Assembly (NCBI GenBank): GCA_964535015.1
Contig: CAZHRU010000003.1
Location: 3,940-67,939, forward strand
DNA from: an uncultured Verrucomicrobiota bacterium
GTDB lineage: Bacteria > Verrucomicrobiota > Kiritimatiellia > CAIKKV01 > CAITUY01
Length of the DNA stretch: 64,000 nucleotides
Reading direction: 5' to 3'
A model generated the notes under the pieces. It had not been told where the DNA came from. It saw only the letters and a program-made list of their open reading frames with translations, and did no database searches. The position numbers and the translations under genes are program-made. Below are positions 50,898-64,000 of this stretch, one piece after another (the stretch's first letter is position 1; the number at the start of each line of letters is the position of its first letter).

Positions 50898-52031
50898 ATG
50901 AAAACCAAACTTCACGGATCGGTAGTTGTAGTCGCCGCCACGGTGTTGGCGATGGCACTGTGTGCCTGTGGTAAGAAACAAGCCGCCGCTTTCCAGCCGC
51001 CGCCGGCGATGGTGAGTATGGCGACAGCGGTCCAGGCGGATACTCCTGTTGTCATCGCGGCCTATGGAACGATCCAGGATCGGGAAAGCGTGGACGTGGT
51101 CCCCCAGGTGTCGGGGATTCTGCTGTCCATCCTGGTACAGGAAGGGGCGGTGGTGACCAACGGTCAGCCGCTTTTCCAGATTGATCCGCGCGACTATCAG
51201 GTTCGAGTGGAGCAGGCGGAAAGCATGGTGGCGATTGACCGGGCGAACCTTGACCAGGGGCGTGCCACGTTACAGCGCAACCAAGGACTGCTGGAGAAGC
51301 GTCTGATTGCGCCGGACACCTTTGACAACATCAAGACCAAGGTGGCGGCGTTGGAGTCGCAACTGAGGATGGATGAGGCGGGGTTGGCGCAGGCCCGGCT
51401 CAATCTCGCCCGCTGCACCATTTCCGCCCCAATCGGCGGTGTCTGTTCCAAGCGGTATGTTGACGCGGGGAATCTGGTGGCCGCCGGAATGTCCCGTCTG
51501 ATCAACGTCCGCAGTTACGATCCCCTGCGCCTCGAGTGTTCGGTCTCCGAGCAGTACTTGCCGGCGCTTCGGAGTGCCTTGTCAGCGGGGGCGCTGGCCG
51601 TATCGGTGACGGCCCGTGGCGATACCAATGTCTACTGGGGCACGGTGTCGTTCATGGACAATGCGGTGAATCCGGTGGCTGGAACCATCCTGTTGCGGGG
51701 CGAGATTCCGAATCCGGCCCTGAACCTATGGGCCAACCAGTTTGTGAACGTTCAGATTACGGTGGCGTCCGTTCCAGGCGCCATCCTGGTCCCGGAGAGC
51801 GCTGTGCAACTGGGCAAGCGGGGCCCCTATCTCTATGTGGTGGGCGCGGATCAAAAGGCTGTAATACGACCGGTCAAGACCGGGGTTCGGCGGAACGACT
51901 GGATTCAGATCACCGAGGGAGTGGCTGCTGGCGAAACGGTGGTTTCGCTGGGGCAGATCAAGTTGTATCCGGGGGTGACGGTTGTGGATCCGGCCAAGAT
52001 GCCGCCGGCGGCTGGTCTTAAGCCCCATTGA
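50898..52031 (+). CDS. RND efflux periplasmic adaptor (membrane fusion protein, AcrA/HlyD family).
   Basis: Lipobox ...AMALCACGKK. Biotinyl/lipoyl-like and beta-barrel domains. Family segment ...RLNLARCTISAPIGGV.... Confidence 0.85.
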   Translation: MKTKLHGSVVVVAATVLAMALCACGKKQAAAFQPPPAMVSMATAVQADTPVVIAAYGTIQDRESVDVVPQVSGILLSILVQEGAVVTNGQPLFQIDPRDYQVRVEQAESMVAIDRANLDQGRATLQRNQGLLEKRLIAPDTFDNIKTKVAALESQLRMDEAGLAQARLNLARCTISAPIGGVCSKRYVDAGNLVAAGMSRLINVRSYDPLRLECSVSEQYLPALRSALSAGALAVSVTARGDTNVYWGTVSFMDNAVNPVAGTILLRGEIPNPALNLWANQFVNVQITVASVPGAILVPESAVQLGKRGPYLYVVGADQKAVIRPVKTGVRRNDWIQITEGVAAGETVVSLGQIKLYPGVTVVDPAKMPPAAGLKPH

Positions 52032-52057
52032 AGTACGAGGGAATCACGGAGGTTGCA

Positions 52058-55000
52058 ATGACGTTTTCAGAAGTATTCATCCGGCGGCCAGTCATGACAA
52101 TTCTGGTCACCGTTCTCATGGTGGTTGGCGGGGTCTGGGCTTATTTACGGCTTCCAGTCAACAGTCTGCCGACGGTGGACTATCCCGTGATTCAGGTGAC
52201 GGTTGCCTATCCTGGTGCCAGTCCGGCCACGATGGCCTCGGCGGTGGCCACGCCGCTTGAAAATGAATTCACGCAGATCAACGGGCTACAGTTCATGTAT
52301 TCGGACAACAAGCAGGGGGTCAGCACCATTACGCTGACCTTCAGTTTGAGCCGCAACGTGGATCTGGTGGCGCCGGATGTCCAGGCGGCTATCACGCGGG
52401 CGGCGCGTAACCTGCCCACCGATCTGCCGAGTCCGCCCATCTACAAGAAGTTCAACCCGTCGGATTCGCCGATTTTCTACCTGATGGTCTATTCCGAGAC
52501 CATGCCCCACGGCGAACTCTATGACTACGCCAACCAGGTGGTGGCGCGGAAACTCAGTATGGTCGAAGGGGTGTCGAAGGTGGAGGTGTTTGGTTCCAAG
52601 CGTGCCGTGCGCATCCAGTTCAGTCCCGAGAAACTGGCCGCCTACCAGATTGGCGTGGACGAGTTGGCCCTGGCGCTCCAGGCGGGGACGGTCAACATTC
52701 CCGGCGGCAGTTTGAACGGCGCGTCGCGCACCTACACCATCGAGCCGCAGGGGCAACTCCGCACCGCCCGCGAATTTGAAAACCTGGTCGTTGCCTCGCG
52801 TCTGGGCGCGCCGGTCCGGTTGCGGGATGTCGCCACGTGCGTTGACAGCATTGGCAACGAGTTGGTGAACATCCGGTTCAGTCCGCCGGGCCGCCCGGAC
52901 TATGAAAAATGCGTGGTAATGCCTGTGTCGCGCGTGAGCGGGGCGAATACGGTGGCGGTGGCGGACCGGGTGGTCAAGGCGCTGGAAGAGGCCAGGCGAG
53001 AACTGCCTTCCATGGTTCAACTGGAGATCATGTTCAACGGCGCCGATCCCATCCGTGAATCACTCCATGATGTTCAGGTCACGGTTATCATCGCGCTGGT
53101 CATGGTGGTGCTGGTGATCTTCTTCTTCCTGGGGCGTGTTCGCGAGACCATCATTCCGGCTATTGTCCTGCCGATTTCCCTGTTGGGAACCTTTGCCATG
53201 ATGCTGCCGGTGGGGTTCAATCTTGATACCCTTTCGCTGATGGGCATCATCCTGGCCGTGGGGTTCCTGGTGGATGACGCCATTGTGGTGCTGGAGAACA
53301 CGGTGCGCCATCTTGAGGAAGGCCTGAAGCCCATCCCCGCGGCGCTGAAGAGCATGAAGGAAATCTCGTTCACCGTGATTTCCACGAGTGCGGCGCTGGT
53401 CATTGTGTTCCTGCCGCTGGTGTTCATGACGGGGGCGGTGGGGCGGAACCTGAGGGAATTCGCCTTGACGGTCATTTTCGCTGTCATTGTTTCCACCGTT
53501 CTGGCGCTGACGTTGTCGCCCATGATGTGTGCGCGTATCCTGCACCGCGCCAAGGATCCGAACCGGATCCAGCGTTCCATCACCGGGTTTATTGCGGGGA
53601 TGGTGCGGATATACGGGCGTGCGCTCCATTTCCAACTGCGGCACAAGTGGTTGGCCCTGGTGGCCTGGTTGCTTTGCATCGTGGGGGCCGTCGTGTTGTA
53701 CTTCAAGATACCCGGGGACTTCCTGCCGCCGGGGGATAGCAGTTTCATCATGGGTCCGATGCTCATGCCCCAGGGTGCTTCCACTGAGCAGATGCAAGCC
53801 TACCAGGCCAAGGTGACGGCGCTGATCAAGCAGGATCCCAACGTCACTAAACTCGGGAGCGTCACGGGATTCATGCCCGGGTCGGACCAGAGTCTGGGGT
53901 TTGTGTTCATCCGGCTGAAACCCCCGAAGGGTCGGCCGCCGATTGATCAGATTGCCATGAAACTCATGATGCAGTTGATGGCGATTCCGGATGGTTTCTG
54001 TGCCCTGCGTCCGGCGCCGGTGCTCAAGATCAGTTCGGGAGGCGATCCGACGGCGGTTGGCAGTGACTACGCGTACTTGCTCAAGGGGTTGGACCGCGAG
54101 ACGGTCTATTCGACGGCCCTGCAGTTGCAGAGGGAGATGAGTACCATAGGCCTTTTGAATCCGATGACCATCCAGAACAGTGTCAAGTTGGGGATGCCGA
54201 TGCTCAACGTCGCGCTTGACCGGGACCGGGCCTCGGCGTTGGGGATCACGGCCGGTTCCATTGAGCGGGCACTGGCGCTGGCGTTTGCGGGGGGGTATGT
54301 GGCCCAGTTCACGACCGACCAGGACCAGTACCAGGTCATACCGGAAATCCAGAAGTCCAGCCAGCGGTTGCCGGATGATTTGGCGTTGCTCTATTTGCGG
54401 TCCGCCCAGGGGGGATTGGTTCCCATGAAGTCCATTATTCAGTGGCGTGAGACGGCGGGGCCCCAGAGTGTTCCGCATGCGCAGCAGCATGATGCCGCTG
54501 TTATTTCGTTCAGTGCGTGGCCGGGGATTCCGCTGGGGGTGGTGCTCGGGGAAGTGGAGAAGAAGATAGCGTCCGTTCTGCCGCCGACGGTACACGGGGA
54601 GTTCATTGGCGACGCCCTGGAATTCCGGAAATCCATTGCGAGTCTGGGGTTGTTGCTGTTGATCGCCATCTTCCTCAAATACATCATTCTCGGGATTCTC
54701 TATGAGAGTTACATTCATCCTATCACGATTCTCACGACCCTGCCGGTGGCTCTATTTGGCGGGTTCCTGACGCTTTTCATCTTTGGCAGTACGTTGTCGC
54801 TCTATGCCTACATCGGGGTATTCGTGCTGTTGGGGTTGATCACCAAGAACGGGATTCTGATGGTGGACTTTGCGTTGCAGAGGAAGGCCGAGGGCATGAA
54901 CAGTTACGACGCCATTCACAGTGCCTGTGTGGTCCGGTTCCGTCCGATTCTCATGACGGGGTTATGCGCCATTCTGGGGGCGGTGCCGATTGCCTTCGGG

Positions 55001-55159
55001 TATGGGGCGGATGCGTCCAGCCGGGTTCCGCTTGGACTGGTGGTGATGGGCGGGATGATTTTCGCGCAGGTGATTACGTTGTTTGTAACGCCCGGGATTT
55101 ATCTCTACATGGAGAAAATCCAGGAACGCCTGTTCAAGGCGAGGACGGATCTGGAGTAG
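52058..55159 (+). CDS. RND efflux permease (AcrB/HAE1 family, 12-TM).
   Basis: N-terminal segment MTFSEVFIRRPVMTILVTVLMVVGG...LPTVDYPVIQVTVAYPGASP. ~1030 aa. ACGGAGG RBS. Confidence 0.9.
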   Translation: MTFSEVFIRRPVMTILVTVLMVVGGVWAYLRLPVNSLPTVDYPVIQVTVAYPGASPATMASAVATPLENEFTQINGLQFMYSDNKQGVSTITLTFSLSRNVDLVAPDVQAAITRAARNLPTDLPSPPIYKKFNPSDSPIFYLMVYSETMPHGELYDYANQVVARKLSMVEGVSKVEVFGSKRAVRIQFSPEKLAAYQIGVDELALALQAGTVNIPGGSLNGASRTYTIEPQGQLRTAREFENLVVASRLGAPVRLRDVATCVDSIGNELVNIRFSPPGRPDYEKCVVMPVSRVSGANTVAVADRVVKALEEARRELPSMVQLEIMFNGADPIRESLHDVQVTVIIALVMVVLVIFFFLGRVRETIIPAIVLPISLLGTFAMMLPVGFNLDTLSLMGIILAVGFLVDDAIVVLENTVRHLEEGLKPIPAALKSMKEISFTVISTSAALVIVFLPLVFMTGAVGRNLREFALTVIFAVIVSTVLALTLSPMMCARILHRAKDPNRIQRSITGFIAGMVRIYGRALHFQLRHKWLALVAWLLCIVGAVVLYFKIPGDFLPPGDSSFIMGPMLMPQGASTEQMQAYQAKVTALIKQDPNVTKLGSVTGFMPGSDQSLGFVFIRLKPPKGRPPIDQIAMKLMMQLMAIPDGFCALRPAPVLKISSGGDPTAVGSDYAYLLKGLDRETVYSTALQLQREMSTIGLLNPMTIQNSVKLGMPMLNVALDRDRASALGITAGSIERALALAFAGGYVAQFTTDQDQYQVIPEIQKSSQRLPDDLALLYLRSAQGGLVPMKSIIQWRETAGPQSVPHAQQHDAAVISFSAWPGIPLGVVLGEVEKKIASVLPPTVHGEFIGDALEFRKSIASLGLLLLIAIFLKYIILGILYESYIHPITILTTLPVALFGGFLTLFIFGSTLSLYAYIGVFVLLGLITKNGILMVDFALQRKAEGMNSYDAIHSACVVRFRPILMTGLCAILGAVPIAFGYGADASSRVPLGLVVMGGMIFAQVITLFVTPGIYLYMEKIQERLFKARTDLE

Positions 55160-56645
55160 CCCCGAGGTAGATCACTGCACTGAGAAGAACCAGATATCCG
55201 GCGCAATAGACGATGGTGGTTCTCAGGATTTCGTTTTGGCGGGATTCCACGCCGGCGATTGAGGCGCCCACCGAGATGCTTTGCGGGGAGATCATCTTGC
55301 CGGCGGTGGCACCCGAGGTGTTGGCGGCGGAAAGCCATGCGGGGTCGTAGCCTGTGTTGATGGCGGTTTGCTTCTGTAATGACCCCAGCAGGATGTTGGA
55401 CGAGGTGTCGCTGCCGGTCACAAAGGTTCCGATGGCGCCGAGCCACGGTGAGAGGAGGGGGAAATACCCGCCCACGGTGGATGCGAGCATTTTGGCGACG
55501 GAGGCGATCATGCCCGAGGCGGTCATGATCTTGGCCAGGATCAGGATCGAGATGACGACCACGGCGGTGCGCCGGAGTTTTGCGGCGGCCTGACCGACAA
55601 GGTGCAGGGATCGTTTGAAGGTCAGGCCGCCCGCAAGGGTGCCGATGAAGCCGGAAAGCATCAGGAGCGTTCCCGGCGAGGTGAGCAGATCCAGGGGGAC
55701 AGTGTGGCCGTTGCCGCCCAGTGACAGGACGAAAGGGGGCTTTTGGAGGATTTTGAGGGGGGTGAGGCGGGTGGCCAGGACCATAACGAGAAGGCAGATG
55801 AAGGGGAGAGAGGCGGTGAACAGGGAAGGTTCGCCGGGTTCGCGCGGAGTAACGGGCGTATTCTGCCTGAGGCAGTGACTGTAGGCGACATAAGCGAACA
55901 GGGAGATGAGGGATCCGCCGACGGCCACCAGTTCGGGGCCGGAGAACCAGGCGATGAGCAGTTGTGTTGTTGAGAAGACAACGCCGATAAACAGGGCTTC
56001 GAGCAGGGAGCGACGGGATCCGCGCCAGCCGCCGTTCGCCATGAGGACCAGGACGGATGGGATCAGGACGGCGAAGAGTGCCAATTGAACGGCCGTATGC
56101 CGGGTCAGGGTGGTGATGTCCAGTCCAGTTGCGTTGGCCAGGGCGAACATCGGGATGCCCAGGCCGCCAAAGGCGACGGGGACGGAATTGGCCACGAGGC
56201 AGATCACGGTGGCCCGAACGGGTTTGATGCCAAGGACAATCAGCATGCCAGCGGGGACGGCGACGGCGGAACCGAAGCCAGCCACGGATTCGAGGAATCC
56301 GCCCAGGCAGAAGGCGATCAGGACGACTTGGACGGGTCGGTCGGGTGTGACGGCCGTGATGAAGCGGCGGAACGTGTTGATGGCCTTGGTTTCCGTGCAG
56401 GCCAGGAAGACGAAGATGGCGGCGAGGATCACCCACAGGATGGGAACCACGGCGGTGACGGTTCCTTCGAAAGCGGCCCAACCGAGGAGGGGGAGGGAGG
56501 CGTTCCAACCGGACCAGGCGAGCAGGGCGGTCGCGGTGGCGGCCAACAGGGCGACAGCGTGGGCGGGACGTCTCGTGAAGCCCAGTCCGATGAAGAGCAA
56601 GACCAACGGGACCAACCCAACGAATCCTGAAGATAGATCAGTCAT
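55134..56645 (-). CDS. L-lactate permease (LctP family).
   Basis: Multi-TM protein with LctP-like segments ...ESVAGFGSAVAVPAGMLIVLGIKP... and GGLGIPMFALANATGLD. Start MTDLSSGF at 56645. 26-nt convergent overlap with the RND permease gene. Confidence 0.8.
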   Translation of the reverse strand: MTDLSSGFVGLVPLVLLFIGLGFTRRPAHAVALLAATATALLAWSGWNASLPLLGWAAFEGTVTAVVPILWVILAAIFVFLACTETKAINTFRRFITAVTPDRPVQVVLIAFCLGGFLESVAGFGSAVAVPAGMLIVLGIKPVRATVICLVANSVPVAFGGLGIPMFALANATGLDITTLTRHTAVQLALFAVLIPSVLVLMANGGWRGSRRSLLEALFIGVVFSTTQLLIAWFSGPELVAVGGSLISLFAYVAYSHCLRQNTPVTPREPGEPSLFTASLPFICLLVMVLATRLTPLKILQKPPFVLSLGGNGHTVPLDLLTSPGTLLMLSGFIGTLAGGLTFKRSLHLVGQAAAKLRRTAVVVISILILAKIMTASGMIASVAKMLASTVGGYFPLLSPWLGAIGTFVTGSDTSSNILLGSLQKQTAINTGYDPAWLSAANTSGATAGKMISPQSISVGASIAGVESRQNEILRTTIVYCAGYLVLLSAVIYLGATPDPSSP

Positions 56646-56808
56646 TTCGGCGTCCAAAAAGAGCGCAAGAATGTGACAGGGCGTGATGGAACGCAAGCCG
56701 CAACTGTGCGTGGATTATGGGTTGACTCAATTCGCCGCCTGCCTCATTGTTTTGGGCAAAGGGAAATTTGGATAATTGGCTGTTTCGCGGGGGAAAGGAA
56801 AAGTCACC

Positions 56809-57246
56809 ATGCCGTTGCCGTTGTATCCTGGATCCGAGGGGCTTTCGCTAATGGAATTGACGAGGCTGACGGCCATGGCGGCGGGGGCCGTGACGGGGGC
56901 GGCTGCAGGGTGGCTCTGCAAGCGCAGCATCGGACTTTCCCTGATTGCTTTCATGATTGGCATTATGGGGGGGCTGTTGATTGGGACCGGGATGGGGCGG
57001 TGGCTTTATGTGGCCGAGAACGGGATTGATTGTTACATCACGGCCGGTTTCGGGTGCCTGGTGTCAGCCGCTTTGTCCGCGCTGGCCGGATCTATTCCCA
57101 CGGCGCTGGTGATTTCAGCGGTGATTACCTTTTTGACGTTGCGGCACATGCATCCGCGGCCGCCGCGAATCCGAACGGGGCTGATGGCGGTGTGGTGCGG
57201 CGTGATCGGCGGGCTACTGACGGCGGTGTTCGTGGCGCTGGTGTAG
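56809..57246 (+). CDS. Small hypothetical integral membrane protein (4 TM).
   Basis: Gly/Ala-rich TM helices. Start uncertain (56776 / 56809). Confidence 0.4.
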   Translation: MPLPLYPGSEGLSLMELTRLTAMAAGAVTGAAAGWLCKRSIGLSLIAFMIGIMGGLLIGTGMGRWLYVAENGIDCYITAGFGCLVSAALSALAGSIPTALVISAVITFLTLRHMHPRPPRIRTGLMAVWCGVIGGLLTAVFVALV

Positions 57247-57250
57247 AGGC

Positions 57251-58561
57251 TCAGGCCTTGACGATGTTGCGGGCGGGTTTGGAATAGACGCCCCGCGTAT
57301 CCACGATCAACTTCGCGTGCCTTTTCAGCATCTTGTAGTCGAACGCCGAATGGTGTGTGGCCAGCAGGATGGCATCGTAGGAGGCGATGGTTCGCGGGGT
57401 CAGGGGCACGCTTTTCAGAGTGAAATGATGTTCCCGCATTTTTGGGAAGACCGGGAAGTAAGGGTCGGAGTAGGCGTACCGGGCTCCCCGTTTGCGCAGG
57501 AGTTCCAGCAGGATCATGGAGGGAGACTCGCGAGGGTCGTCCACGTCCTTCTTGTAGGAGAGGCCGAGGAGGAGGATGCGGCTGTTCTTGACTGATTTGC
57601 CGCGCTCGTTAAGGGCCTCGGCCAGTTTGCCGATGACCCATTCCGGCATGCCGCTGTTCACTTCGCCGGCCAGTTCGATGAAGCGGGTATGGACGCCGTA
57701 TTCCCGGGCCTTCCACGTCAGGTAGAAGGGGTCGATGGGGATGCAGTGGCCGCCGAGGCCGGGGCCGGGTTGGTAAGGGACGAAGCCGAACGGTTTGGTG
57801 GAGGCCGCCTCGATGACCTCGTGGATATCAATGCCCATGCGGTCGGCCACGATCTTCATTTCGTTTACCAATCCGATATTGACGGAGCGGTGGATGTTTT
57901 CCAGGAGTTTGGTCATCTCGGCCACGCGGGTGGAACTGACGGGGACGACCCGGTCAATGGCCTTGCCGTAGAGGGCTAAGCCGGCGGCGAGGCAGGCGGG
58001 GGTGACGCCGCCGCAGACCTTGGGGATGGAACGGGTATTGAACTTCGGGTTGCCGGGGTCCTCGCGTTCGGGCGAGAAGACCACGAAGTAGTCCTCACCG
58101 ATGGTGAAGCCGCGCGCGGCGATACGCGGGACGAGTTCCTCGTCGGTGGTGCCGGGATAGGTGGTGCTTTCCAGCGACATGATCTGGCCGGCGCGGATAT
58201 GGGGGACGAGTGACTCGACGGTGCCGACGACGAAACTCAGGTCCGGTTCGCGGTGTTCATCGAGTGGGGTGGGGACGCAGATGATGAGGGCGTCGGTCTT
58301 GCGGGCGCGGGCGAAGTCGGTGGTGGCCTCGAAGCCGGATTTGCGGGCGCGGCGGAGCGCCTGGGCGGGAATATGTTTGATGTAACTTTTCCCGGCGGTG
58401 AGCAGTTTGACCTTATGTGGGTCAATATCGATGCCGAGGACCTTGTAGCCTTCCTCGATAAAGCGCAGGACGAGCGGGAGGCCGACATAGCCCAATCCCA
58501 CGATGCCGATGACGGCGGACTTGCGATCGAGTTTGCGGATCAGTTTGGTTTTGTAGTCCAT
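57251..58561 (-). CDS. Nucleotide-sugar dehydrogenase (UDP-glucose / UDP-N-acetyl-D-mannosamine dehydrogenase family, WecC/TviB-like).
   Basis: N-terminal Rossmann motif [14 protein letters not shown]. Catalytic Cys region ...[10 protein letters not shown].... Start MDYKTKL at 58561. Confidence 0.85.
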
Positions 58562-58731
58562 GGTGTTTGCCTCCCCCTGAGTCAATGTAGAACCGACTGT
58601 CTGGTATTTAACCACGAAGGGTGCGAAGGACACAAAGGAAATAGTGACCCGCCATTTGGCGAAGTCGGCAAACAAAGATTGCCGATCGATTTCCTGTCCG
58701 GATTTGCCTTCTGCTGCAGCATACTAGTAGA

Positions 58732-60870
58732 ATGAGCGATGTCATGAACGACAGGGAATTGTTGCAGGCGTTTGCCCGGCAGAAGTCGGGATCGGCGTTC
58801 GCGGAACTGGTGCGCCGCCACGGCAAACTGGTCTATTCCTGTGCCCGGCAACGTGTGGGCGACCCCCACGCCGCCGAGGACATTACCCAGTCGGTCTTCC
58901 TCGCTCTGGCCATCAAAGCCCCCAAACTGCCGGCCGACGTTGTCTTGCCGGGATGGTTGTATCGGGCCACCCGGTTTGCGGCGGCCGAATACCACAGGCG
59001 GGAACAACACCGCCGGGAGAGGGAAATGCGAGCCAGCGAACACCAACAGATCCATGGGGCCACCGACGACACAGTCGCGCTTTGGGAGGCAATCCGCCCC
59101 CACCTGGCCGAGGCGCTCGACGGGTTGTCATCCGCCGACCGTGATGCGGTTTTGCTGCGGTTCTACGAACAGGCGAGTTACCCGCAGATCGCAGAGACGT
59201 TGCGGATGTCGCACGATTCCGCCCGCAAGCGGGTGGATCGGGCGCTGGACAAACTGCGCCGATTCTTCACCAAGAAAGGCATCGGAATCGGCACGGGTGC
59301 ACTGGCGGCCTTGCTTTCCGCGGAAGCCGGAGCCGTAACTCTCCCGGCAACATTTGTGTCCGCCACGGTCAAGGGAGCGACCTTGGTTGCGGGTGGAAAA
59401 TTGGCGGCAGGCGTTGGTGTCGGCATGGTGTCGGCCCACGTTGCCGCGTTAACGAAAGGAGCCCTGAAGATGATATTCATTGCCAAAGTAAAAACCGCCG
59501 CCCTGATTGCTGCCGCCTGTGTCGTCGTGGCCGGTAGCGGGGTGGTTGTCGCCAAACAACTCGTTGTGTCTTCGACACCAGTGCCATCTGAAACGAAAGT
59601 TGCGGTGCCGGTAGCCACACCTGTTCTGGTCGCACCCGCACCCGCCCCAGTCACGCCCGATCAACCGCCGACTGTGACACCGGCCCCGGCTTCCTCCAAG
59701 GTCGCCGACCAGTCAGTCCATTTCACCGAGGCAGACAACGGCAAGACGGTGACGGTCACAGTGGGGCAGACCTTCGAAATCGTACTCCGCAGTAGCCAGA
59801 AACTGACGGGTTGGGAAGGTGGACGGCCTGATGGCGAGAACGTCGTGCGGTTGAGTGAGGAAAAAGGGTTCCAGTACCGTGCGGTAAAGGTCGGCCGGTG
59901 CTTGATCCAGTTGGATCTCGTTTATCCGAGCGGTCCGGAGGTGACAACGCGCAGGAAAGCCGAGTTGAGGGGCCGTTTCAAATTGACGGTGCAGGTGCGG
60001 GCGGCGGACGAGACGTCGGCCACGACGCAGCCGATCCGGCTGGCCAACGGTTTGGAGTTGGTGGCATTTGGCCCAAGTCAGGCCGACGCGCCGACGCGAA
60101 CGCGGGCGACGCCGTTGACGCTGGGCGTGCGGGTCACCAACCCGACCGCGCAACCGCAGGAGTTCTGGCCGCACAAAGTTCAGATCCTGCTTCGCTGGGG
60201 CCGCGGCGAACTGCGGACGGTTGGCATTAATGTGGATGTTACGGCGCGTGCGCGTGCCATCAGCATCCCGGCGGGTGGCACCCAGTCGTTCCCGTTGACC
60301 GATGCTCGGTTCAGTTACGGCGGCAAGCCGCCGTACCTGGCGTTTTACAGTGCCTCGTTGCACCCGGGCGCGTACTATGAGCAGGAGGTGAAGGGCGAAG
60401 CAGGCCAAGTCGGGTTCGCGTTTGAGTACCAAGAGGACAACGCCAGCCCGCGCACCGTCGAGATTATCTGCCGGCTGGTCGCTGCGCCTGCGGCGGCAGC
60501 CCCTGCCGTCAACGAGTACGTCGCCCAGCAGATCGCGCAACTTTGGGTCACCGCACTGTTGCAGGGCCGTGTCGAGCAAGTCGTGGCGGTCTCGGACGTG
60601 CCGTTCGTCTGGGACGAACGCGAGGTGGTGAAGACCGCTGAGGAACTCAAAACCAAGATTGAGGGCGTGATCAAGACGAAGGGCGTACGCAACCTGCAAG
60701 CCGGGGAGGCCACATTCCTCAAGGATGCGGAAGTCGCGCAGGCGGCGGATCGGTTCAACATGCTCGACGTTGCCGGGTTGGCCTTCGTGTTGGTGAAGAT
60801 CGATACGGAAGGTGTGCTTCTGGCCATCAAGTCCGGCAACCAATTGAAGGTGGGCGGTTTCAGTGATTGA
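58732..60870 (+). CDS. ECF (group 4) sigma-70 factor fused to a transmembrane segment and a ~430-aa extracytoplasmic domain (one-component sigma/anti-sigma-like protein).
   Basis: Sigma region 2 ELVRRHGKLVYSCARQRVGDPHAAEDITQSVFL. Region 4 DRDAVLLRFYEQASYPQIAETLRMSHDSARKRVDRAL. Conserved hydrophobic block ...GKLAAGVGVGMVSAHVAALTKGALKMIFIAKVKTAALIAAACVVVAG. Confidence 0.7.
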   Translation: MSDVMNDRELLQAFARQKSGSAFAELVRRHGKLVYSCARQRVGDPHAAEDITQSVFLALAIKAPKLPADVVLPGWLYRATRFAAAEYHRREQHRREREMRASEHQQIHGATDDTVALWEAIRPHLAEALDGLSSADRDAVLLRFYEQASYPQIAETLRMSHDSARKRVDRALDKLRRFFTKKGIGIGTGALAALLSAEAGAVTLPATFVSATVKGATLVAGGKLAAGVGVGMVSAHVAALTKGALKMIFIAKVKTAALIAAACVVVAGSGVVVAKQLVVSSTPVPSETKVAVPVATPVLVAPAPAPVTPDQPPTVTPAPASSKVADQSVHFTEADNGKTVTVTVGQTFEIVLRSSQKLTGWEGGRPDGENVVRLSEEKGFQYRAVKVGRCLIQLDLVYPSGPEVTTRRKAELRGRFKLTVQVRAADETSATTQPIRLANGLELVAFGPSQADAPTRTRATPLTLGVRVTNPTAQPQEFWPHKVQILLRWGRGELRTVGINVDVTARARAISIPAGGTQSFPLTDARFSYGGKPPYLAFYSASLHPGAYYEQEVKGEAGQVGFAFEYQEDNASPRTVEIICRLVAAPAAAAPAVNEYVAQQIAQLWVTALLQGRVEQVVAVSDVPFVWDEREVVKTAEELKTKIEGVIKTKGVRNLQAGEATFLKDAEVAQAADRFNMLDVAGLAFVLVKIDTEGVLLAIKSGNQLKVGGFSD

Positions 60871-61153
60871 CGTGGGCCGATCTTGATACGTCCGCCATTT
60901 CGGTCTGTTGGTGTACCGGCGCTTCTGCGACGACTAAGACCGCACAATCTATTGAGACTGCGGAGATTGGCGAGGGGCGACTAGGTTCGCTGCCGAGGCA
61001 TAACTCGTTGAGTGGAAAAGTATAACATGCAAAACGACTCCCTGTCGGAATAAAGTGATAGATTGTGTGTCCCTAAGCGACTTAGTCAGTCTTCGAAGAT
61101 TTATGATATTTATTGTCACAGTGAGGGAACGAGATACGGATAGGTTGGTAAGA

Positions 61154-62449
61154 ATGCAGAATGGAATTCAACAGAACCAGGCGAGGACCGACGGCGAAAT
61201 GCTGGCGGCCTTTGTGTCCGGCGGGGATGAACAGGCGTTTGCCACAGTCATCCAGCGACACGGACGAATGGTTGCGGGTGTAGCGCACGGTATTCTTGGG
61301 GACTGGCACGAAGCGCAGGACGTTGCCCAGGCGGTGTTTCTAGTGTTGGCCCGTAAAGCGGGTCGGCTCCAGGCATCCCTGAGCGTCGCTCCATGGTTGC
61401 ATCGTGTAGCCCATGATGTTGCTGTGGACGCCCTGCGACGCCGGCAGAGCCGGAGTCGCCATGAAAGAGATGGGGACCTAATGAACTTGCCGTATACTTC
61501 CGTGAAGTCGCTGGAGTCCATGAGTGGTGATCAGCGTCGGCAACTGCAGGAGCAGTTGGGTCGTCTGCCTGACAGGTATCGTGCACCGTTGGTGCTATGT
61601 TACCTGGAGGGTCAGACCTCTGAACAGGCGGCGCAGATGCTGGGGTTGGAGGCCGGCACATTACGCAAGCGACTGGAAAGGGGTAGGGACCGGTTACGGC
61701 AACGACTGGCACGGGCCGGTTGGGTGGTTACGACTGGGACGTTGATGACATTGCTTTCTGCGGAAACCGGGGCCGCTGTCCTCCCGGCGTCATACATCTC
61801 CGCCACGGTTAAGGCTTGTAGCCTGGTTGCGACGGGGAAATTTGCGGCTGGAGTGGGGGTGGGAATAATCTCGCCCAACGTGGCCGCGCTTACGAAAGGG
61901 ACCCTGCATATGTTGTTTATCAGCAAACTCAAAACTGCCATTGTAGTCGCCACCGCCTCTGTTGCCGTTGTTGGCACTGGCATTGTGACCGCGACGCAAC
62001 AAGGTCAGTCGCCAATGGCGGCTCCTGTTGCCGTAACGAAAGGTCAGTCCTCGATCAGTCAAACACCGGCCCGACAGACGCAAGTGCAAAGCGTTGCGGT
62101 CCCTGCGAAGGCGCTGGTGCCGAGTTCGGCGCCAGATGGCATCTGGGTTCCCATTGACCCCGGGGCTGCAAGAGTGAACGCGGGTACGGGGACACAAGGC
62201 CAGTCGCCGGCAGTATCTGTGCATAGTGTAAAAGGTCAAATTGTGTCAATCAACGAAAGTCGCCTGACGCTCCGCGTATCTGGGGGGCAAAGTAGTGATA
62301 TGCTTTGCAGTGTCGGCCCGGGCACCACGGTCATACTGATGGGCGGGAAGCAGGGGGCGCTGACCGATCTCAATGCGAGTCAGATGGTGAAAGCGACCTT
62401 GGACTCGCAATGGAAGCAGGTAATAAAAATTGAAATCGTCGAGCGGTGA
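61154..62449 (+). CDS. Paralogous ECF sigma factor fused to a TM segment and a C-terminal extracytoplasmic domain.
   Basis: Sigma region 2 ATVIQRHGRMVAGVAHGILGDWHEAQDVAQAVFL. Region 4 PLVLCYLEGQTSEQAAQMLGLEAGTLRKRLERGRDRL. TM block GKFAAGVGVGIISPNVAALTKGTLHMLFISKLKTAIVVATASVAVVG is nearly identical to the preceding gene. Confidence 0.7.
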   Translation: MQNGIQQNQARTDGEMLAAFVSGGDEQAFATVIQRHGRMVAGVAHGILGDWHEAQDVAQAVFLVLARKAGRLQASLSVAPWLHRVAHDVAVDALRRRQSRSRHERDGDLMNLPYTSVKSLESMSGDQRRQLQEQLGRLPDRYRAPLVLCYLEGQTSEQAAQMLGLEAGTLRKRLERGRDRLRQRLARAGWVVTTGTLMTLLSAETGAAVLPASYISATVKACSLVATGKFAAGVGVGIISPNVAALTKGTLHMLFISKLKTAIVVATASVAVVGTGIVTATQQGQSPMAAPVAVTKGQSSISQTPARQTQVQSVAVPAKALVPSSAPDGIWVPIDPGAARVNAGTGTQGQSPAVSVHSVKGQIVSINESRLTLRVSGGQSSDMLCSVGPGTTVILMGGKQGALTDLNASQMVKATLDSQWKQVIKIEIVER

Positions 62450-62469
62450 GATGATGGAATCGTAATTGA

Positions 62470-62506
62470 AGACCGGATAGTCTGGCGGACTATCCGGTCT
62501 TATTGA
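62470..62506 (+). terminator. Rho-independent terminator of the ECF-fusion gene.
   Basis: Perfect 13-bp stem AGACCGGATAGTC-tggcg-GACTATCCGGTCT followed by TATTGA. Confidence 0.7.
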
Positions 62507-62771: not shown

Positions 62772-63887
62772 CTATTGCGCGAAGAACTCCTTGATGTTTT
62801 GGACGACCCAGTCCGCCTGGGCATCGGAAAGTTCGGGGTAGATGGGAAGGGCGAGGGTTTCGAGGGCGGCGCGTTCGCTTTCGGGGAAGTCGCCTTTCTT
62901 GTGGCCGAGGTAGGCGAAGCAGTCCTGCAGGTGCAGAGGGAGCGGGTAGTAGACCTCGACGCCGATGTCCCGTTTCTGGAGGAAGGCGCGCAGGTCGTCC
63001 CGGCGGGGTGTGCGGATGATGTACTGGTTGAAGACATGGCGCGACATGACGGTGGGCGGCAGGCGGAGGGGGTTGTTTGCGAGTCCGGCGGCGGCGAAGA
63101 GGCGGTCATAGCGGGCCGCGTTGGCCTGCCGCTGGCGGGTCCAGGCGTCCAGGTGGTTGAGTTTCACGTTGACCACGGCGGCCTGCAGGGCATCGAGGCG
63201 GAAGTTGCCGCCGAGGAGGTGGTGGAAGTACTTGGGTTCCATGCCGTGGACACGCAGGACGGCCAGGCGGGTGGCACGGTCCTTGTCCAGGCAGGTGATG
63301 GCGCCGCCATCGCCTGCGCCGCCGAGGTTCTTGGAGGGGAAGAACGAGAAGCAGCCGTAGGTGCCGATGGTGCCGGCGCGCCGTCCTTTGTATTCCGCGC
63401 CGATGGACTGGCAGGCGTCCTCGATGACGGCGAGTTTGCGGCGGTTGGCGATGGCCATGATGGGGTCCATGTCGGCCATCTGGCCATAGAGATGGACGGG
63501 CATGATGGCGCGGGTCTTTGGGGTGATGGCGGCTTCGATTGTGGTGACATTGATGTTGAAGGTGGCCGGTTCGATATCCACGAAGACGGGGCGGGCGCCG
63601 AGGCGTGCGATGGAACCGGCGGTGGCGAAGAAGGTGTAGGGGGTGGTGATGACTTCGTCGCCGGGGCCGACGCCTTCGGCCATGAGGGCGAGGAGCAGGG
63701 CGTCGGTTCCGGAGGAGACGCCGATGGCGTGGGGGCAGTGGCAGTAGGCGGCGAGGGACTCCTCGCAGGCCTTGACGTTGGGGCCCATGATGAAGTACTG
63801 GGATTCGAATACCTGCGCCACGGCGGCGTCAATCTCGCTACGGATGCTTTGGTACTGCGCTTTCAGATCCAACAACGGTACGTTCAT
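62772..63887 (-). CDS. DegT/DnrJ/EryC1/StrS-family PLP-dependent sugar aminotransferase.
   Basis: N-terminal segment [23 protein letters not shown]...[17 protein letters not shown]. Family segment ...[17 protein letters not shown].... Start at 63887. Confidence 0.85.
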
Positions 63888-64000
63888 TGCATATTCTCCT
63901 GGAAGGGATTCAACCACAACGGGGACGAGAAGGGGGCGGGAGTATTAACATGGATAGGCAGGATGGACAGGATGGGGAGAGGGGAAGGTGCGGGGAGGAT

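What the first reader, a model, noticed from the sequence alone, without database searches (positions are those of the whole stretch)
58732..62449. Tandem paralogous ECF sigma factors fused to a conserved transmembrane block and large extracytoplasmic domains
Both proteins carry complete sigma-2 and sigma-4 regions, followed by a nearly identical ~70-aa hydrophobic block (…LLSAE.GA.VLPA..ISATVK...LVA.GK.AAGVGVG..S..VAALTKG.L.M.FI.K.KTA…). After this come divergent periplasmic domains of ~430 aa and ~190 aa.

This looks like a one-polypeptide sigma / anti-sigma / sensor arrangement, which would require regulated proteolysis or conformational release. The second gene has its own low-GC promoter region and a strong terminator (62470-62506). 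Duplication with divergent sensor domains suggests signal diversification.
Basis: partly seen in the sequence, partly recalled or inferred. Interest (0 to 1): 0.55.

Follow-up and report, generated by a model that had tools for sequence, protein, structure and literature searches.

The report
Tandem membrane-anchored ECF sigma factors
Two neighbouring genes each encode a complete stress-type (ECF) sigma factor fused to a conserved cytoplasmic linker, one membrane-spanning helix and an unrelated outside domain; they belong to a very large, catalogued but experimentally unstudied family of Verrucomicrobia and Planctomycetes that probably works like the known fused sigma/anti-sigma protein IutY.

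Summary
Gene 1 (58732-60870, 712 aa) and gene 2 (61154-62449, 431 aa; possible alternative start 61103) are same-strand paralogues. Each has a canonical ECF sigma2+sigma4 core, a conserved ~65-aa Ala/Gly-rich segment, one transmembrane helix, a Pro/Ser/Thr-rich linker and an unrelated C-terminal domain.

Corrections:
- Only the last ~20-25 aa of the "hydrophobic block" can span the membrane. The rest is cytoplasmic.
- The block is 58-65% identical between the two genes, not "nearly identical".
- Gene 2's outside part is ~150 aa, not ~190.

The genes are not unusual. A block-only profile finds ~5,500 protein clusters, always directly after sigma4, mostly in Verrucomicrobiota. Tandem arrays of 2 to at least 6 copies with shuffled ectodomains recur, no anti-sigma gene is co-encoded, and a shared promoter-like motif (TTGTCCGGTTT...CATTTATA) sits ~35-40 nt before the start codons.

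The block matches no known anti-sigma domain. Gene 1 is a mosaic of a clade-1 sigma and a clade-2 block, which argues against a tightly co-evolved anti-sigma interface.

Most likely mechanism, inferred and not shown: a membrane-tethered pro-sigma released by regulated intramembrane proteolysis, as shown experimentally for IutY and proposed for ECF48/52/53. Verdict: new member of a known kind, moderate interest.

The parts
58683..58731 (+). Promoter-like region of gene 1. It contains the family motif TGTCCGGATTT (58695-58705) and a -10-like CATACTA (58720-58726) ending 5 nt before the ATG, which implies a leaderless or near-leaderless mRNA.
   Evidence: Motif enrichment across 103 family upstream regions: TGTCCG in 43 versus 4.2 expected, positioned at -31 to -50. 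This is the only exact TGTCCSSNTTT match in the window. 49 of 83 loose matches in 716 kb lie within 110 nt upstream of sigma-fusion genes.
58732..60870 (+). Gene 1: a 712-aa membrane-anchored ECF sigma factor (sigma core, block, TM helix, three-module ectodomain).
   Evidence: ORF. An identical protein, P0001, is held in NCBI/Logan.
58807..59262 (+). Gene 1 ECF sigma core: sigma2 (aa 26-93) and sigma4 (aa 125-177).
   Evidence: Pfam PF04542, PF04545 and PF08281 above threshold; TIGR02937; full-length alignment to Mtb SigE; AF2 pLDDT 90-98; Foldseek hits to ECF sigma structures.
59278..59481 (+). Gene 1 conserved cytoplasmic juxtamembrane block (aa 183-250), Ala/Gly-rich. Predicted helices are 188-200 and 206-220, followed by a loop and then the start of a long helix. 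It is not membrane-spanning.
   Evidence: Hessa dG at least +5. Family consensus ALAxxLxxxAxxAAPAGLAA...LAKGAxxMM, with P205, L191 and L195 at least 90% conserved. AF2 pLDDT 93/88 falling to 74-77 and then ~55. No Pfam hit. Clade-2 type, giving a mosaic.
59482..59556 (+). Gene 1 single transmembrane helix (aa ~251-275, core 256-274 AALIAAACVVVAGSGVVVA).
   Evidence: Kyte-Doolittle 2.2-2.5. Hessa dG -0.05, the only window below 2 in the protein. Same position in ~all homologues. The flanking charge bias supports N-in/C-out.
59557..59706 (+). Gene 1 Pro/Thr/Ser/Ala-rich extracytoplasmic linker (aa 276-325).
   Evidence: Direct reading of the sequence. Family post-TM linkers average 46% P/T/S/A/Q.
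59707..60024 (+). Gene 1 ectodomain module A (aa 326-431): an Ig-like beta-sandwich with fold-level resemblance to chagasin/amoebiasin (I42) inhibitors.
   Evidence: AF2 pLDDT 60-80. Foldseek PDB hits 6cjz, 2nnr, 3m86, 3m88 with TMt 0.46-0.64, E ~1e-4, 18-20% identity. No Pfam hit. Shared with P0003, P0121, P0123, P0124.
60034..60501 (+). Gene 1 ectodomain module B (aa 435-590): beta-rich, fold unassigned, an insertion present only in gene 1, P0002 and P0122.
   Evidence: Alignment A3. AF2 confidence mostly below 50. No Pfam hit.
60514..60867 (+). Gene 1 ectodomain module C (aa 595-712, PAVNEY...LKVGGFSD): an alpha+beta domain shared by several otherwise differently built sigma fusions.
   Evidence: BLASTP 48-70% identity to the C-termini of P0003, P0005, P0121, P0123, P0125. 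AF2 pLDDT 60-80, three helices plus a beta-sheet. No Pfam hit.
61068..61078 (+). Variant family motif TGTCCCTAAGC upstream of gene 2. It lies 35 nt before the in-frame ATG 61103 and 86 nt before ATG 61154.
   Evidence: with the sequence. It lies in the low-GC intergenic region (GC 0.48-0.52). The downstream -10-like element is displaced by ~7 nt relative to the family consensus, so the assignment is tentative.
61154..62449 (+). Gene 2: a 431-aa membrane-anchored ECF sigma factor paralogue. The start is ambiguous: 61154 as called by NCBI, or 61103 giving 448 aa as in the Logan calls.
   Evidence: ORF; exact-match clusters P0126 (431 aa) and P0127 (448 aa).
61250..61702 (+). Gene 2 ECF sigma core (sigma2 and sigma4).
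   Evidence: Pfam PF04542 at 49.8 bits and PF08281 at 48.1 bits; TIGR02937.
61718..61924 (+). Gene 2 conserved cytoplasmic block, the same long 'clade-2' type as in gene 1.
   Evidence: 58-65% identity to the gene 1 block. Hessa dG at least +5. No Pfam hit.
61925..61999 (+). Gene 2 single transmembrane helix (core AIVVATASVAVVGTGIVTA).
   Evidence: Kyte-Doolittle 2.08. Hessa dG +1.37, the only windows below 2 in the protein.
62000..62446 (+). Gene 2 extracytoplasmic part (~150 aa): a low-complexity Ser/Gln/Pro/Ala linker followed by a small beta-rich C-terminal domain. It is an orphan sequence.
   Evidence: Translation. The homologue search found nothing, although it also missed the identical protein P0126, so its word prefilter failed on this query. 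The only Pfam match is a sub-threshold YajC-like hit, E 0.018.
62469..62501 (+). Terminator-like hairpin after gene 2: a 15-bp perfect stem and 3-nt loop, followed by UUAUUG.
   Evidence: RNA fold dG -26.4 kcal/mol, z -5.1, 0 of 200 shuffles as stable. Not called by the consensus scan because the U-run is short.

Best explanation
Genes 1 and 2 are two tandem members of a very large Verrucomicrobiota/Planctomycetota family of single-pass, membrane-anchored ECF sigma factors.

Architecture (shown): a cytoplasmic sigma2-sigma4 core, a conserved ~65-aa cytoplasmic juxtamembrane block, one marginally hydrophobic Gly-containing TM helix, a Pro/Ser/Thr-rich linker and a variable ectodomain.

Proposed mechanism (inferred):
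1. The full-length protein is an inactive, membrane-tethered pro-sigma.
2. A signal perceived by the ectodomain triggers a site-1 cut in the exposed linker or ectodomain.
3. A site-2 protease (RseP-type) then cuts within the TM helix.
4. The sigma core, with the block trimmed or retained, is released to bind RNA polymerase.

This follows the experimentally characterised fused sigma/anti-sigma protein IutY. The genes carry a family-specific promoter-like motif that could mediate autoregulation or common control. Tandem duplication plus module shuffling (ectodomain modules, and in gene 1 even the cytoplasmic block) diversifies the inputs.
For: Architecture:
- Canonical sigma2/sigma4.
- A single insertion-competent helix at the same position in g1, g2 and ~all homologues.
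- Net charge bias +1.9 inside versus +0.35 outside.
- No signal peptide ahead of a domain that must be cytoplasmic (inference).

Self-contained regulation:
- No anti-sigma gene next to g1 or g2.
- No conserved neighbour in 79 related loci.
- The block is always attached to sigma4 among the best 150 of ~5,500 hits.

Compatibility with intramembrane proteolysis:
- 90% of family TM helices contain Gly (mean 2.1), and TM hydrophobicity is marginal (median dG ~1).
- The linkers are Pro/Thr/Ser-rich and likely exposed.

Auto-inhibition hint:
- AF2 places helix 188-200 with pLDDT ~90.
- The modelled sigma2/sigma4 arrangement is closer to anti-sigma-bound states (rmsd 7.5-12 A) than to holoenzyme states (22-28 A).

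Precedent: IutY is activated by Prc and RseP, and ECF48/52/53 are predicted to work alike (PMC8999054).

Diversification:
- Tandem arrays in 13 of 82 loci, and arrays of at least 6 genes.
- Modular ectodomains.
- A described planctomycetal analogue (PMC7671368).
Against: - No step of the proteolytic cascade is shown. No protease gene is linked in the window or in related loci.
- The block has no detectable homology to any anti-sigma domain.
- The g1 mosaic (clade-1 sigma with a clade-2 block) argues against a specific inhibitory sigma-block interface.
- The compact AF2 conformation may simply reflect AF2's tendency to compact single chains. Model coordinates could not be inspected for contacts.
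- K+R counts alone give only a modest positive-inside bias (79 versus 53 proteins).
- A 65-aa tether could in principle allow a membrane-bound sigma to function without cleavage.
- Ectodomain ligands are unknown. The gene 2 ectodomain is an orphan.
Confidence: 0.55

Rival explanations
1. Tethered-active sigma, like ToxR or CadC. The protein is never cleaved. The sigma core recruits RNA polymerase while anchored to the membrane through the ~65-aa flexible block, and ligand binding or oligomerisation of the ectodomain switches activity through conformational change.
For: The conserved cytoplasmic block is long enough to act as a tether or transmission element. The block can be swapped between clades, as expected for a generic transmission or tether module. 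No protease linkage was found.
Against: There is no precedent for a sigma factor functioning while membrane-anchored. The known membrane-associated or fused cases (pro-sigmaK, from general knowledge; IutY, PMC8999054) need proteolysis. A single Gly-rich, marginally hydrophobic TM helix followed by a Pro-rich linker is a poor conformational transmitter but a typical site-2 protease substrate.
Confidence: 0.18
2. One reading: the conserved block is a bona fide fused anti-sigma domain that clamps sigma2 and sigma4. The protein would then be a true sigma/anti-sigma fusion derived from an ancestral two-gene pair.
For: High AF2 confidence for helix 188-200 and moderate confidence for 206-220. The model's sigma2/sigma4 geometry is nearest to the CnrH/CnrY and SigW/RsiW complexes. 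Short two-helix class II anti-sigma domains (CnrY, NepR) exist (general knowledge). P205, L191 and L195 are strongly conserved.
Against: No Pfam anti-sigma hit at E<=10 and no ZAS motif. No standalone block-TM proteins were seen, and every apparent one is a truncated gene call. The mosaic g1 shows that sigma and block do not co-evolve as a pair. Contacts could not be read from the model.
Confidence: 0.17
3. Fortuitous extensions. After duplication of the sigma-block-TM unit, whatever lay downstream was captured as a C-terminal extension (the Pinto et al. model). In that case many ectodomains, including the orphan one of gene 2, are not sensors and the anchor only localises or sequesters the sigma.
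For: Pinto et al. proposed exactly this for planctomycetal duplicates (PMC7671368). The gene 2 ectodomain has no detectable homologue. Ectodomain content is extremely heterogeneous across the family.
Against: The gene 1 ectodomain modules are conserved at 48-70% identity and reused in different combinations in other fusions, which indicates selection. Many family ectodomains are recognisable binding domains such as HEAT, LRR, TonB_C and CarboxypepD_reg.
Confidence: 0.1

Closest known systems
IutY of Pseudomonas putida (ECF243), a fused FecI-type sigma / FecR-type anti-sigma protein activated by Prc and RseP
   Same: It is a single polypeptide with an N-terminal ECF sigma, one TM helix and a C-terminal periplasmic domain. 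It has no separate anti-sigma factor. Proteolytic release has been shown experimentally (PMC8999054).
   Different: IutY carries a FecR-type anti-sigma domain and periplasmic FecR domain, and works with a TonB-dependent receptor in cell-surface signalling. Here there are no FecR/DUF4880 hits and no receptor gene adjacent. The juxtamembrane block is a different, unannotated module, and the taxa differ (Verrucomicrobiota).
Actinobacterial ECF48/ECF52/ECF53 (for example SCO4117)
   Same: An ECF sigma with a long C-terminal extension containing TM helices, a Pro-rich outside region and a binding domain. Activation by proteolysis is predicted (PMC8999054).
   Different: Those extensions begin with a zinc-finger (ZAS-like) anti-sigma domain and have 1-2 or more TM helices. 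The block here has no His/Cys motif and there is a single TM helix.
Planctomycetal ECF sigma factors with C-terminal extensions (ECF01-Gob / ECF57; the duplicated clusters of Pinto et al. 2020)
   Same: The same superphylum (PVC). Many paralogues per genome. Recent duplicates share sigma2/sigma4 but carry unrelated C-terminal extensions (PMC7671368). Planctomycetota proteins are among the homologues found here.
   Different: ECF57 is described by WD40 repeats and two conserved Cys linking sigma2 and sigma4 (PMC8999054). Neither is present here. That ECF01-Gob has a TM helix after sigma4 is my recollection of Jogler et al. 2012, which is not held in the library and could not be checked. The conserved block, the promoter motif and the long tandem arrays are not described in the papers I could read.
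SigI/RsgI multiplicity in cellulolytic Clostridia
   Same: Many paralogous sigma systems whose membrane components carry diversified extracellular binding modules, with activation by regulated proteolysis (general knowledge; PMC10575876 was listed but not read).
   Different: These are two separate proteins, the sigma is of the SigI type and not an ECF, and the phylum is Firmicutes.
Pro-sigmaK of Bacillus subtilis
   Same: A sigma factor made as an inactive, membrane-associated precursor and activated directly by an S2P-family intramembrane protease, SpoIVFB (general knowledge).
   Different: It has an N-terminal pro-sequence, no ectodomain and no true TM helix, and it is a group 3 sigma.

Membership tests
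ECF (group 4) sigma-70 family | Sigma2 and sigma4 domains present, sigma3 and sigma1 absent | tested here: met
   Pfam r2 and r4/r4_2 above threshold, with no r3 or r1. TIGR02937 at 76.7 and 78.1 bits against a cut-off of 42.9. Foldseek and sequence hits only to ECF sigmas.
ECF (group 4) sigma-70 family | Conserved core- and DNA-binding determinants (region 2.2 DxxQxxF, region 2.3/2.4 WLxxI/A, region 4.2 HTH) | tested here: met
   g1 AEDITQSVF / GWLYRAT / SYPQIAETL...ARKRVDRALDKLR aligns with Mtb SigE. Q53, W75 and L76 are invariant across 97 family members.
A specific ECF Hub group (ECFxx / ECF2xx) | Score above threshold with the group HMM of the ECF classification 2.0 | not testable with these tools
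   The ECF Hub HMMs and the supplementary group descriptions are not available. No NCBIfam subfamily model reaches its cut-off; for example TIGR02989 scores 57 and 72 bits against 124.55.
FecI/FecR-type sigma/anti-sigma hybrids (IutY, ECF243) | FecR-type anti-sigma domain and periplasmic FecR domain after the sigma | tested here: not met
   No FecR/DUF4880/DUF4974 hit in the whole proteins at E<=0.1 or in the isolated block and modules at E<=10.
FecI/FecR-type sigma/anti-sigma hybrids (IutY, ECF243) | Genetic linkage to a TonB-dependent receptor | tested here: not met
   The neighbours are a UDP-sugar dehydrogenase, a lactate permease, an RND pump and a DegT aminotransferase. No conserved neighbour in 79 loci.
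FecI/FecR-type sigma/anti-sigma hybrids (IutY, ECF243) | Activation by site-1 (Prc) and site-2 (RseP) proteolysis | not testable with these tools
   This needs experiments. Only compatible features are seen: a Gly-containing marginal TM helix and an exposed linker.
ECF48/52/53 ZAS-fused sigma factors | Zinc-finger (HxxxCxxC) anti-sigma domain directly after sigma4 | tested here: not met
   No zf-HC2 hit. The block sequences of g1 and g2 contain no such motif.
ECF57 (Planctomycetes) | WD40-like repeats in the extension and two conserved Cys linking sigma2 and sigma4 | tested here: not met
   No WD40 Pfam hit. No alignment column in the sigma region has 20% or more Cys; the only such column is in the TM helix, position 263 at 22%.
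ECF41/42/56-type cytoplasmic C-terminal extensions | Soluble SnoaL_2 or TPR extension without a TM helix | tested here: not met
   A single TM helix is present. No SnoaL or TPR hits.
Verrucomicrobiota/Planctomycetota 'sigma4-block-TM' family (defined here) | Conserved G(V/I)xxSxxALAxxL...AAPAGLAA...(LAKGAxxMM)...KxK segment immediately after sigma4, followed by one TM helix | tested here: met
   Both genes match the block profile (P0001 at 71.4 bits, P0127 at 65.5 bits). Consensus and conserved P205/L191/L195.
Chagasin/I42 peptidase-inhibitor fold (module A only) | Ig-like beta-sandwich plus the NPTTG / GxGG / RPW loop motifs | tested here: inconclusive
   Fold-level Foldseek matches with TMt 0.46-0.64 on a model of only 60-80 pLDDT. 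No PF09394 hit. The canonical loop motifs are not evident in the sequence.

The most novel reading that the evidence does not exclude
The conserved sigma4-attached block plus single TM helix would be a previously undefined signalling module, found in ~5,500 protein clusters. It would turn ECF sigma factors into true one-component transmembrane receptors. In Verrucomicrobiota these would form tandem 'receptor arrays' of at least 6 genes that share a dedicated, near-leaderless promoter type and evolve by shuffling of ectodomain modules and of the cytoplasmic block. The block would then act either as a new minimal class of intramolecular anti-sigma element or as a generic docking site for a shared protease or regulator. 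This would make it the dominant extracytoplasmic sensing system of the phylum.
Probability: 0.3. Interest if true: 0.65.

Novelty: new member of a known kind. Interest (0 to 1): 0.38.

Why it matters
ECF sigma factors are a major route of bacterial signal transduction. Fused, membrane-anchored versions have been studied experimentally in essentially one case (IutY), with partial data for SCO4117. This locus is a clean, compact example of a very abundant PVC-superphylum family: two paralogues, a defined promoter motif, a clear single TM helix and different ectodomains.

If the proteolytic-release model holds, the family would explain how Verrucomicrobia, which are important soil, freshwater and gut polysaccharide degraders, sense many external cues without separate anti-sigma factors. 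The conserved block would be a candidate new regulatory or protease-recognition module. The shared promoter motif and modular build could also be useful as orthogonal parts for synthetic biology.

For this particular window, however, the result is an ordinary member of a catalogued architecture and not a new kind of system.

Tried and rejected
1. Standalone 'split' anti-sigma proteins. P0121 looked like a TM-plus-ectodomain protein without a sigma, but it lies at a contig edge. All ~57 block hits with the block near the N-terminus start inside sigma4, at the conserved internal Met, or with a non-Met residue, so they are truncated gene calls. Rejected.

2. Recent gene conversion between g1 and g2 as the reason for the similar block. 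Nucleotide identity in the block is only ~70%, with variable third-position identity. A recent event is rejected. An older module swap is supported instead.

3. A second TM helix or membrane hairpin inside the block. Kyte-Doolittle values of 1.4-1.6 were suspicious, but Hessa dG is at least +5 kcal/mol, and 0% of family members fall below 1.5. Rejected.

4. A sequencing or frameshift artefact fusing a sigma gene to an anti-sigma gene. Rejected, because the same architecture occurs in thousands of independent proteins.

5. Pfam assignment of the block and of ectodomain modules A, B, C and the g2 ectodomain at E<=10. Nothing was found except a sub-threshold YajC-like hit.

6. Homologues of the g2 ectodomain. 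None were found, but the search also missed the identical protein P0126, so its word prefilter failed on this query and the negative result is weak.

7. A sigma-70-type promoter scan. Only weak 9/12 matches.

8. A conserved genomic partner such as a protease, an anti-sigma factor or target genes. None was found in 79 loci.

9. The first genome scan with the 97-sequence alignment failed for lack of conserved stretches. It was repeated with 18 sequences.

11. Jogler 2012, Wiegand 2020 and the ECF 2.0 supplements are not held, so the ECF group could not be assigned.

12. The source organism was not identified.

Full report
1. WHAT IS THERE

The region holds two same-strand ORFs: 58732-60870 (712 aa, gene 1) and 61055-62449 (maximal ORF of gene 2). 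Gene 2 is called by NCBI as 431 aa starting at ATG 61154, and by Logan assemblies as 448 aa starting at ATG 61103. The GTG at 61055 is unlikely to be the start.

BLASTP between the two proteins gives 41% identity over 271 aa (E 2e-53). The similarity ends right after a hydrophobic helix, and the C-terminal parts are unrelated. No further copy of the sigma or the block exists in the 64-kb window.

2. THE SIGMA PARTS ARE CANONICAL

- Both proteins pass the Pfam thresholds for Sigma70_r2 and Sigma70_r4/r4_2.
- Both pass the NCBIfam ECF superfamily model TIGR02937, but no subfamily model reaches its cut-off.
- Gene 1 aligns from residue 13 to 179 with M. tuberculosis SigE (E 8e-11). The region 2.2 (AEDITQSVF), region 2.3/2.4 (GWLYRAT) and region 4.2 HTH motifs are all in place.
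- Q53, W75 and L76 are invariant across 97 relatives.
- An AF2 model of residues 1-290 has pLDDT 90-98 over both domains and finds only ECF sigma structures.

3. THE "HYDROPHOBIC BLOCK" IS TWO THINGS

Kyte-Doolittle analysis shows only one TM-grade segment per protein. The stricter Hessa biological scale gives a single insertion-competent 19-aa window in each protein:
- gene 1, residues 256-274: dG -0.05 kcal/mol
- gene 2, residues 262-280: dG +1.4 kcal/mol

The preceding ~65 residues score at least +5 kcal/mol. The same holds family-wide: the TM median is ~1.0, the best upstream-block window has a median of 5.1, and none falls below 1.5. Nearly every homologue has its one hydrophobic segment at residue ~225-265.

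The block is therefore a conserved cytoplasmic Ala/Gly-rich segment followed by one TM helix. The other refutation condition, that the block is not membrane-spanning, is met for most of the block but not for its last third.

Topology is N-in/C-out:
- The flanking net charge is about +1.9 on the N side and +0.35 on the C side.
- The sigma core has to be cytoplasmic to function (inference).

The C-terminal ~437 aa of gene 1 and ~150 aa of gene 2 are therefore extracytoplasmic by inference.

4. THIS IS A LARGE FAMILY, NOT A LOCAL ODDITY

- A whole-protein search returns hundreds of 450-1000-aa "sigma-70 family" proteins whose C-terminal parts carry very different Pfam domains: HEAT, CarboxypepD_reg, TonB_C, LRR, redoxin, PPIase and TIGR03435.
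- The family consensus after sigma4 is RKRVxRALDKLRxxLxRRGVxxTxxALAxxLxxxAxxAAPAGLAA...LAKGAxxMM..KxK followed by the TM helix. P205, L191 and L195 are at least 90% conserved.
- A block-only profile searched against 1.84 billion representatives finds 5,520 proteins at E<=1e-3 and 564 at E<=1e-10.
- In the best 150, the block either sits at ~175-190, directly after sigma4, or the protein is a truncated gene call beginning inside sigma4. I found no standalone block-TM protein. P0121, which looked like one, lies at a contig edge.
- Species-representative genomes with relatives are overwhelmingly Verrucomicrobiota MAGs, with some Planctomycetota and a few probably mis-binned records. The closest copy is only 50% identical, so the source organism is not among them.

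5. GENOMIC HABITS OF THE FAMILY

- Same-strand tandem sets of 2-4 paralogues occur in 13 of 82 loci.
- Longer contigs show 4-5 copies within 15 kb, and at least 6 consecutive copies.
- No other gene is a conserved neighbour. The most frequent non-sigma cluster is found in 12 of 79 loci, and these clusters are unrelated housekeeping or pseudopilin-like genes.
- In the window the neighbours are a divergent UDP-sugar dehydrogenase, a lactate permease, an RND pump and a convergent DegT aminotransferase.
- No separate anti-sigma factor accompanies these sigmas.

6. A FAMILY-SPECIFIC PROMOTER-LIKE MOTIF (side finding)

In 103 upstream regions, TGTCCG occurs in 43 against 4.2 expected. Anchoring on TGTCC gives this consensus: an A-rich tract, TTGTCCGGTTTTG, ~12 nt (often the inverted repeat CCGGTTT...AAACCGG), GCATTTATA, 4-9 nt, then the start codon. 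52 of 70 occurrences lie 31-50 nt before the start.

Across 716 kb of held sequence, 49 of 83 loose matches lie within 110 nt upstream of the 117 sigma-fusion genes. The remainder is at roughly the chance rate.

- Gene 1 fits exactly: TGTCCGGATTT at 58695 and CATACTA ending 5 nt before the ATG.
- Gene 2 has a variant, TGTCCC at 61068. It lies 35 nt before ATG 61103 and 86 nt before ATG 61154, so its start codon is ambiguous.

The geometry implies leaderless or near-leaderless mRNAs. I have not shown whether the motif is recognised by these sigmas themselves (autoregulation) or by another factor.

7. ECTODOMAINS

The gene 1 ectodomain has only nine homologues and is modular:
- a Pro-rich linker (276-325)
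- module A (326-431)
- module B (435-590, an insertion seen only in gene 1, P0002 and P0122)
- module C (595-712, PAVNEY...LKVGGFSD), which is reused in fusions with different upstream modules

AF2 on this shallow alignment is weak: mean pLDDT 57, with A and C at 60-80 and B unmodelled. Foldseek relates module A at fold level to chagasin/amoebiasin-type Ig-like sandwiches (TMt 0.46-0.64). There is no Pfam support, so this is only a lead.

The gene 2 ectodomain is a low-complexity linker plus a small beta-rich domain with no detectable relatives. That search also missed the identical protein P0126, so the negative result is weak.

8. IS THE BLOCK AN ANTI-SIGMA DOMAIN?

For:
- AF2 keeps high confidence for helix 188-200 (pLDDT ~90) and moderate confidence for helix 206-220 (~75), before dropping to ~55.
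- The modelled sigma2/sigma4 geometry is closer to anti-sigma-bound structures (CnrH/CnrY, SigW/RsiW, AlgU/MucA; rmsd 7.5-12 A) than to holoenzyme-bound sigmas (22-28 A).

Against:
- There is no similarity to any known anti-sigma domain, and no split versions were found.
- There is clear domain-wise discordance. The gene 1 sigma core belongs to one clade (60-71% identity to P0002, P0003 and P0006, but 30-34% to the other clade). Its block residues 186-246 belong to the other clade (75-79% to P0020, P0025 and P0031, and 65% to gene 2, but 29-36% to its sigma relatives). The TM helix and ectodomain again follow the first clade.
- This swap is not recent. Nucleotide identity to gene 2 is ~70% in the block against ~47% in the sigma part.

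A module that can be exchanged between sigma cores only ~32% identical is unlikely to be a tightly co-evolved cognate inhibitor. A generic tether, membrane-proximal element or docking site for a shared partner fits better. I could not inspect model coordinates, so this question stays open.

9. MECHANISM

Shown: the architecture, the single TM helix, the absence of a partner anti-sigma gene, family size, tandem arrays, modular shuffling and the promoter-like motif.

Inferred: the full-length protein is an inactive membrane-tethered pro-sigma that is released by regulated intramembrane proteolysis. The basis for the inference is:
- The experimental precedent of IutY (Prc plus RseP), and the same prediction for ECF48/52/53 and SCO4117 (PMC8999054).
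- Gly-containing, marginally hydrophobic TM helices (90% with Gly).
- Exposed Pro/Ser/Thr-rich linkers.

Rivals are a ToxR-like tethered-active sigma, a true intramolecular anti-sigma clamp, and fortuitously captured, non-sensing extensions (the Pinto et al. model, PMC7671368).

10. COMPARISON AND NOVELTY

Functionally the closest known system is IutY, and next the actinobacterial ZAS-fused ECF52-type sigmas. Membership of either fails, because the FecR and ZAS features were tested and not met. ECF57 features (WD40 repeats, a conserved Cys pair) are also not met.

The phenomenon that duplicates share the sigma but carry unrelated C-terminal extensions has been published for Planctomycetes (PMC7671368). 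The accessible literature does not describe the Verrucomicrobial block, its promoter motif or the long arrays, and the ECF Hub group could not be determined.

I rate the locus a new member of a known kind. It is real, tidy and typical of an abundant but experimentally untouched family. Interest is moderate (0.38). There is about a 0.3 chance that the block/TM unit is a new regulatory module of wider importance.

11. MINOR CHECKS

- The hairpin after gene 2 (62469-62501) is very stable (dG -26.4 kcal/mol, z -5.1) but has a weak U-tract.
- GC falls to 0.48-0.52 in the gene 1 / gene 2 intergenic region.

Noticed in passing
window 58683-58731 and 61068-61078; loci L003-L086 upstream of sigma-fusion genes: A family-wide conserved upstream architecture: an A-rich tract, TTGTCCGGTTTTG, ~12 nt (often the inverted repeat CCGGTTT...AAACCGG), GCATTTATA, 4-9 nt, then the start codon. 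This implies leaderless or near-leaderless transcripts and a dedicated, possibly autoregulated, promoter type. The motif is almost exclusive to these genes within the 716 kb examined.
   Followed up: partly
window 59287-59469 (gene 1 aa 186-246): Gene 1 is a mosaic. Its sigma core and TM/ectodomain group with one clade of the family, but its cytoplasmic block groups with another clade, the one that includes the neighbouring gene 2. This points to an old module swap between paralogues and not a recent gene conversion (~70% nucleotide identity).
   Followed up: yes
L086 1-13232; L084 1-15602: Related metagenomic contigs carry arrays of at least 6 (L086) or 4-5 (L084) consecutive same-strand sigma-fusion genes of 395-894 aa. 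In L084 they sit next to pectate-lyase/GH28 and SASA esterase genes, which hints at polysaccharide sensing.
   Followed up: partly
window 61055-61156: The gene 2 start codon is ambiguous. The candidates are GTG 61055 (the maximal ORF), ATG 61103 (448 aa, as in the Logan calls, and 35 nt downstream of the TGTCCC motif, which is the family-typical spacing) and ATG 61154 (431 aa, the NCBI call).
   Followed up: partly
window 62469-62501: A perfect 15-bp hairpin (dG -26.4 kcal/mol) lies between the convergent gene 2 and the DegT aminotransferase gene. Its U-tract is weak on the + strand, so it could act as a bidirectional or non-canonical terminator.
   Followed up: partly
window 57254-58561 (-) and 62775-63917 (-): The sigma pair is flanked by sugar-nucleotide genes: a UDP-glucose/GDP-mannose dehydrogenase family gene, divergent from gene 1 and sharing the 170-bp intergenic region that holds the motif, and a DegT/DnrJ/EryC1 aminotransferase. 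The sigma pair may be inserted into, or regulate, a cell-envelope glycan locus.
   Followed up: no
window 52028-55159 (+), 55137-56696 (-), 56776-57246 (+): Upstream context: an AcrB-type RND transporter whose 3' end overlaps the 3' end of a convergent L-lactate permease family gene by ~25 nt, and a 156-aa hydrophobic ORF with no Pfam hit.
   Followed up: no
record titles (for example DATJXK01, CAYPSF01, CAZZPE01): Several MAGs carrying typical members of this Verrucomicrobial family are labelled Pseudomonadales, Bifidobacteriaceae, Sulfotelmatobacter and the like. This probably reflects mis-binning or mislabelling in public records.
   Followed up: no
window 62042-62446: The word-indexed homologue search returned nothing for the gene 2 ectodomain, not even the identical protein P0126 that is known to be in the collection. 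A negative result from that tool on low-complexity or short queries should therefore be treated with caution.
   Followed up: no
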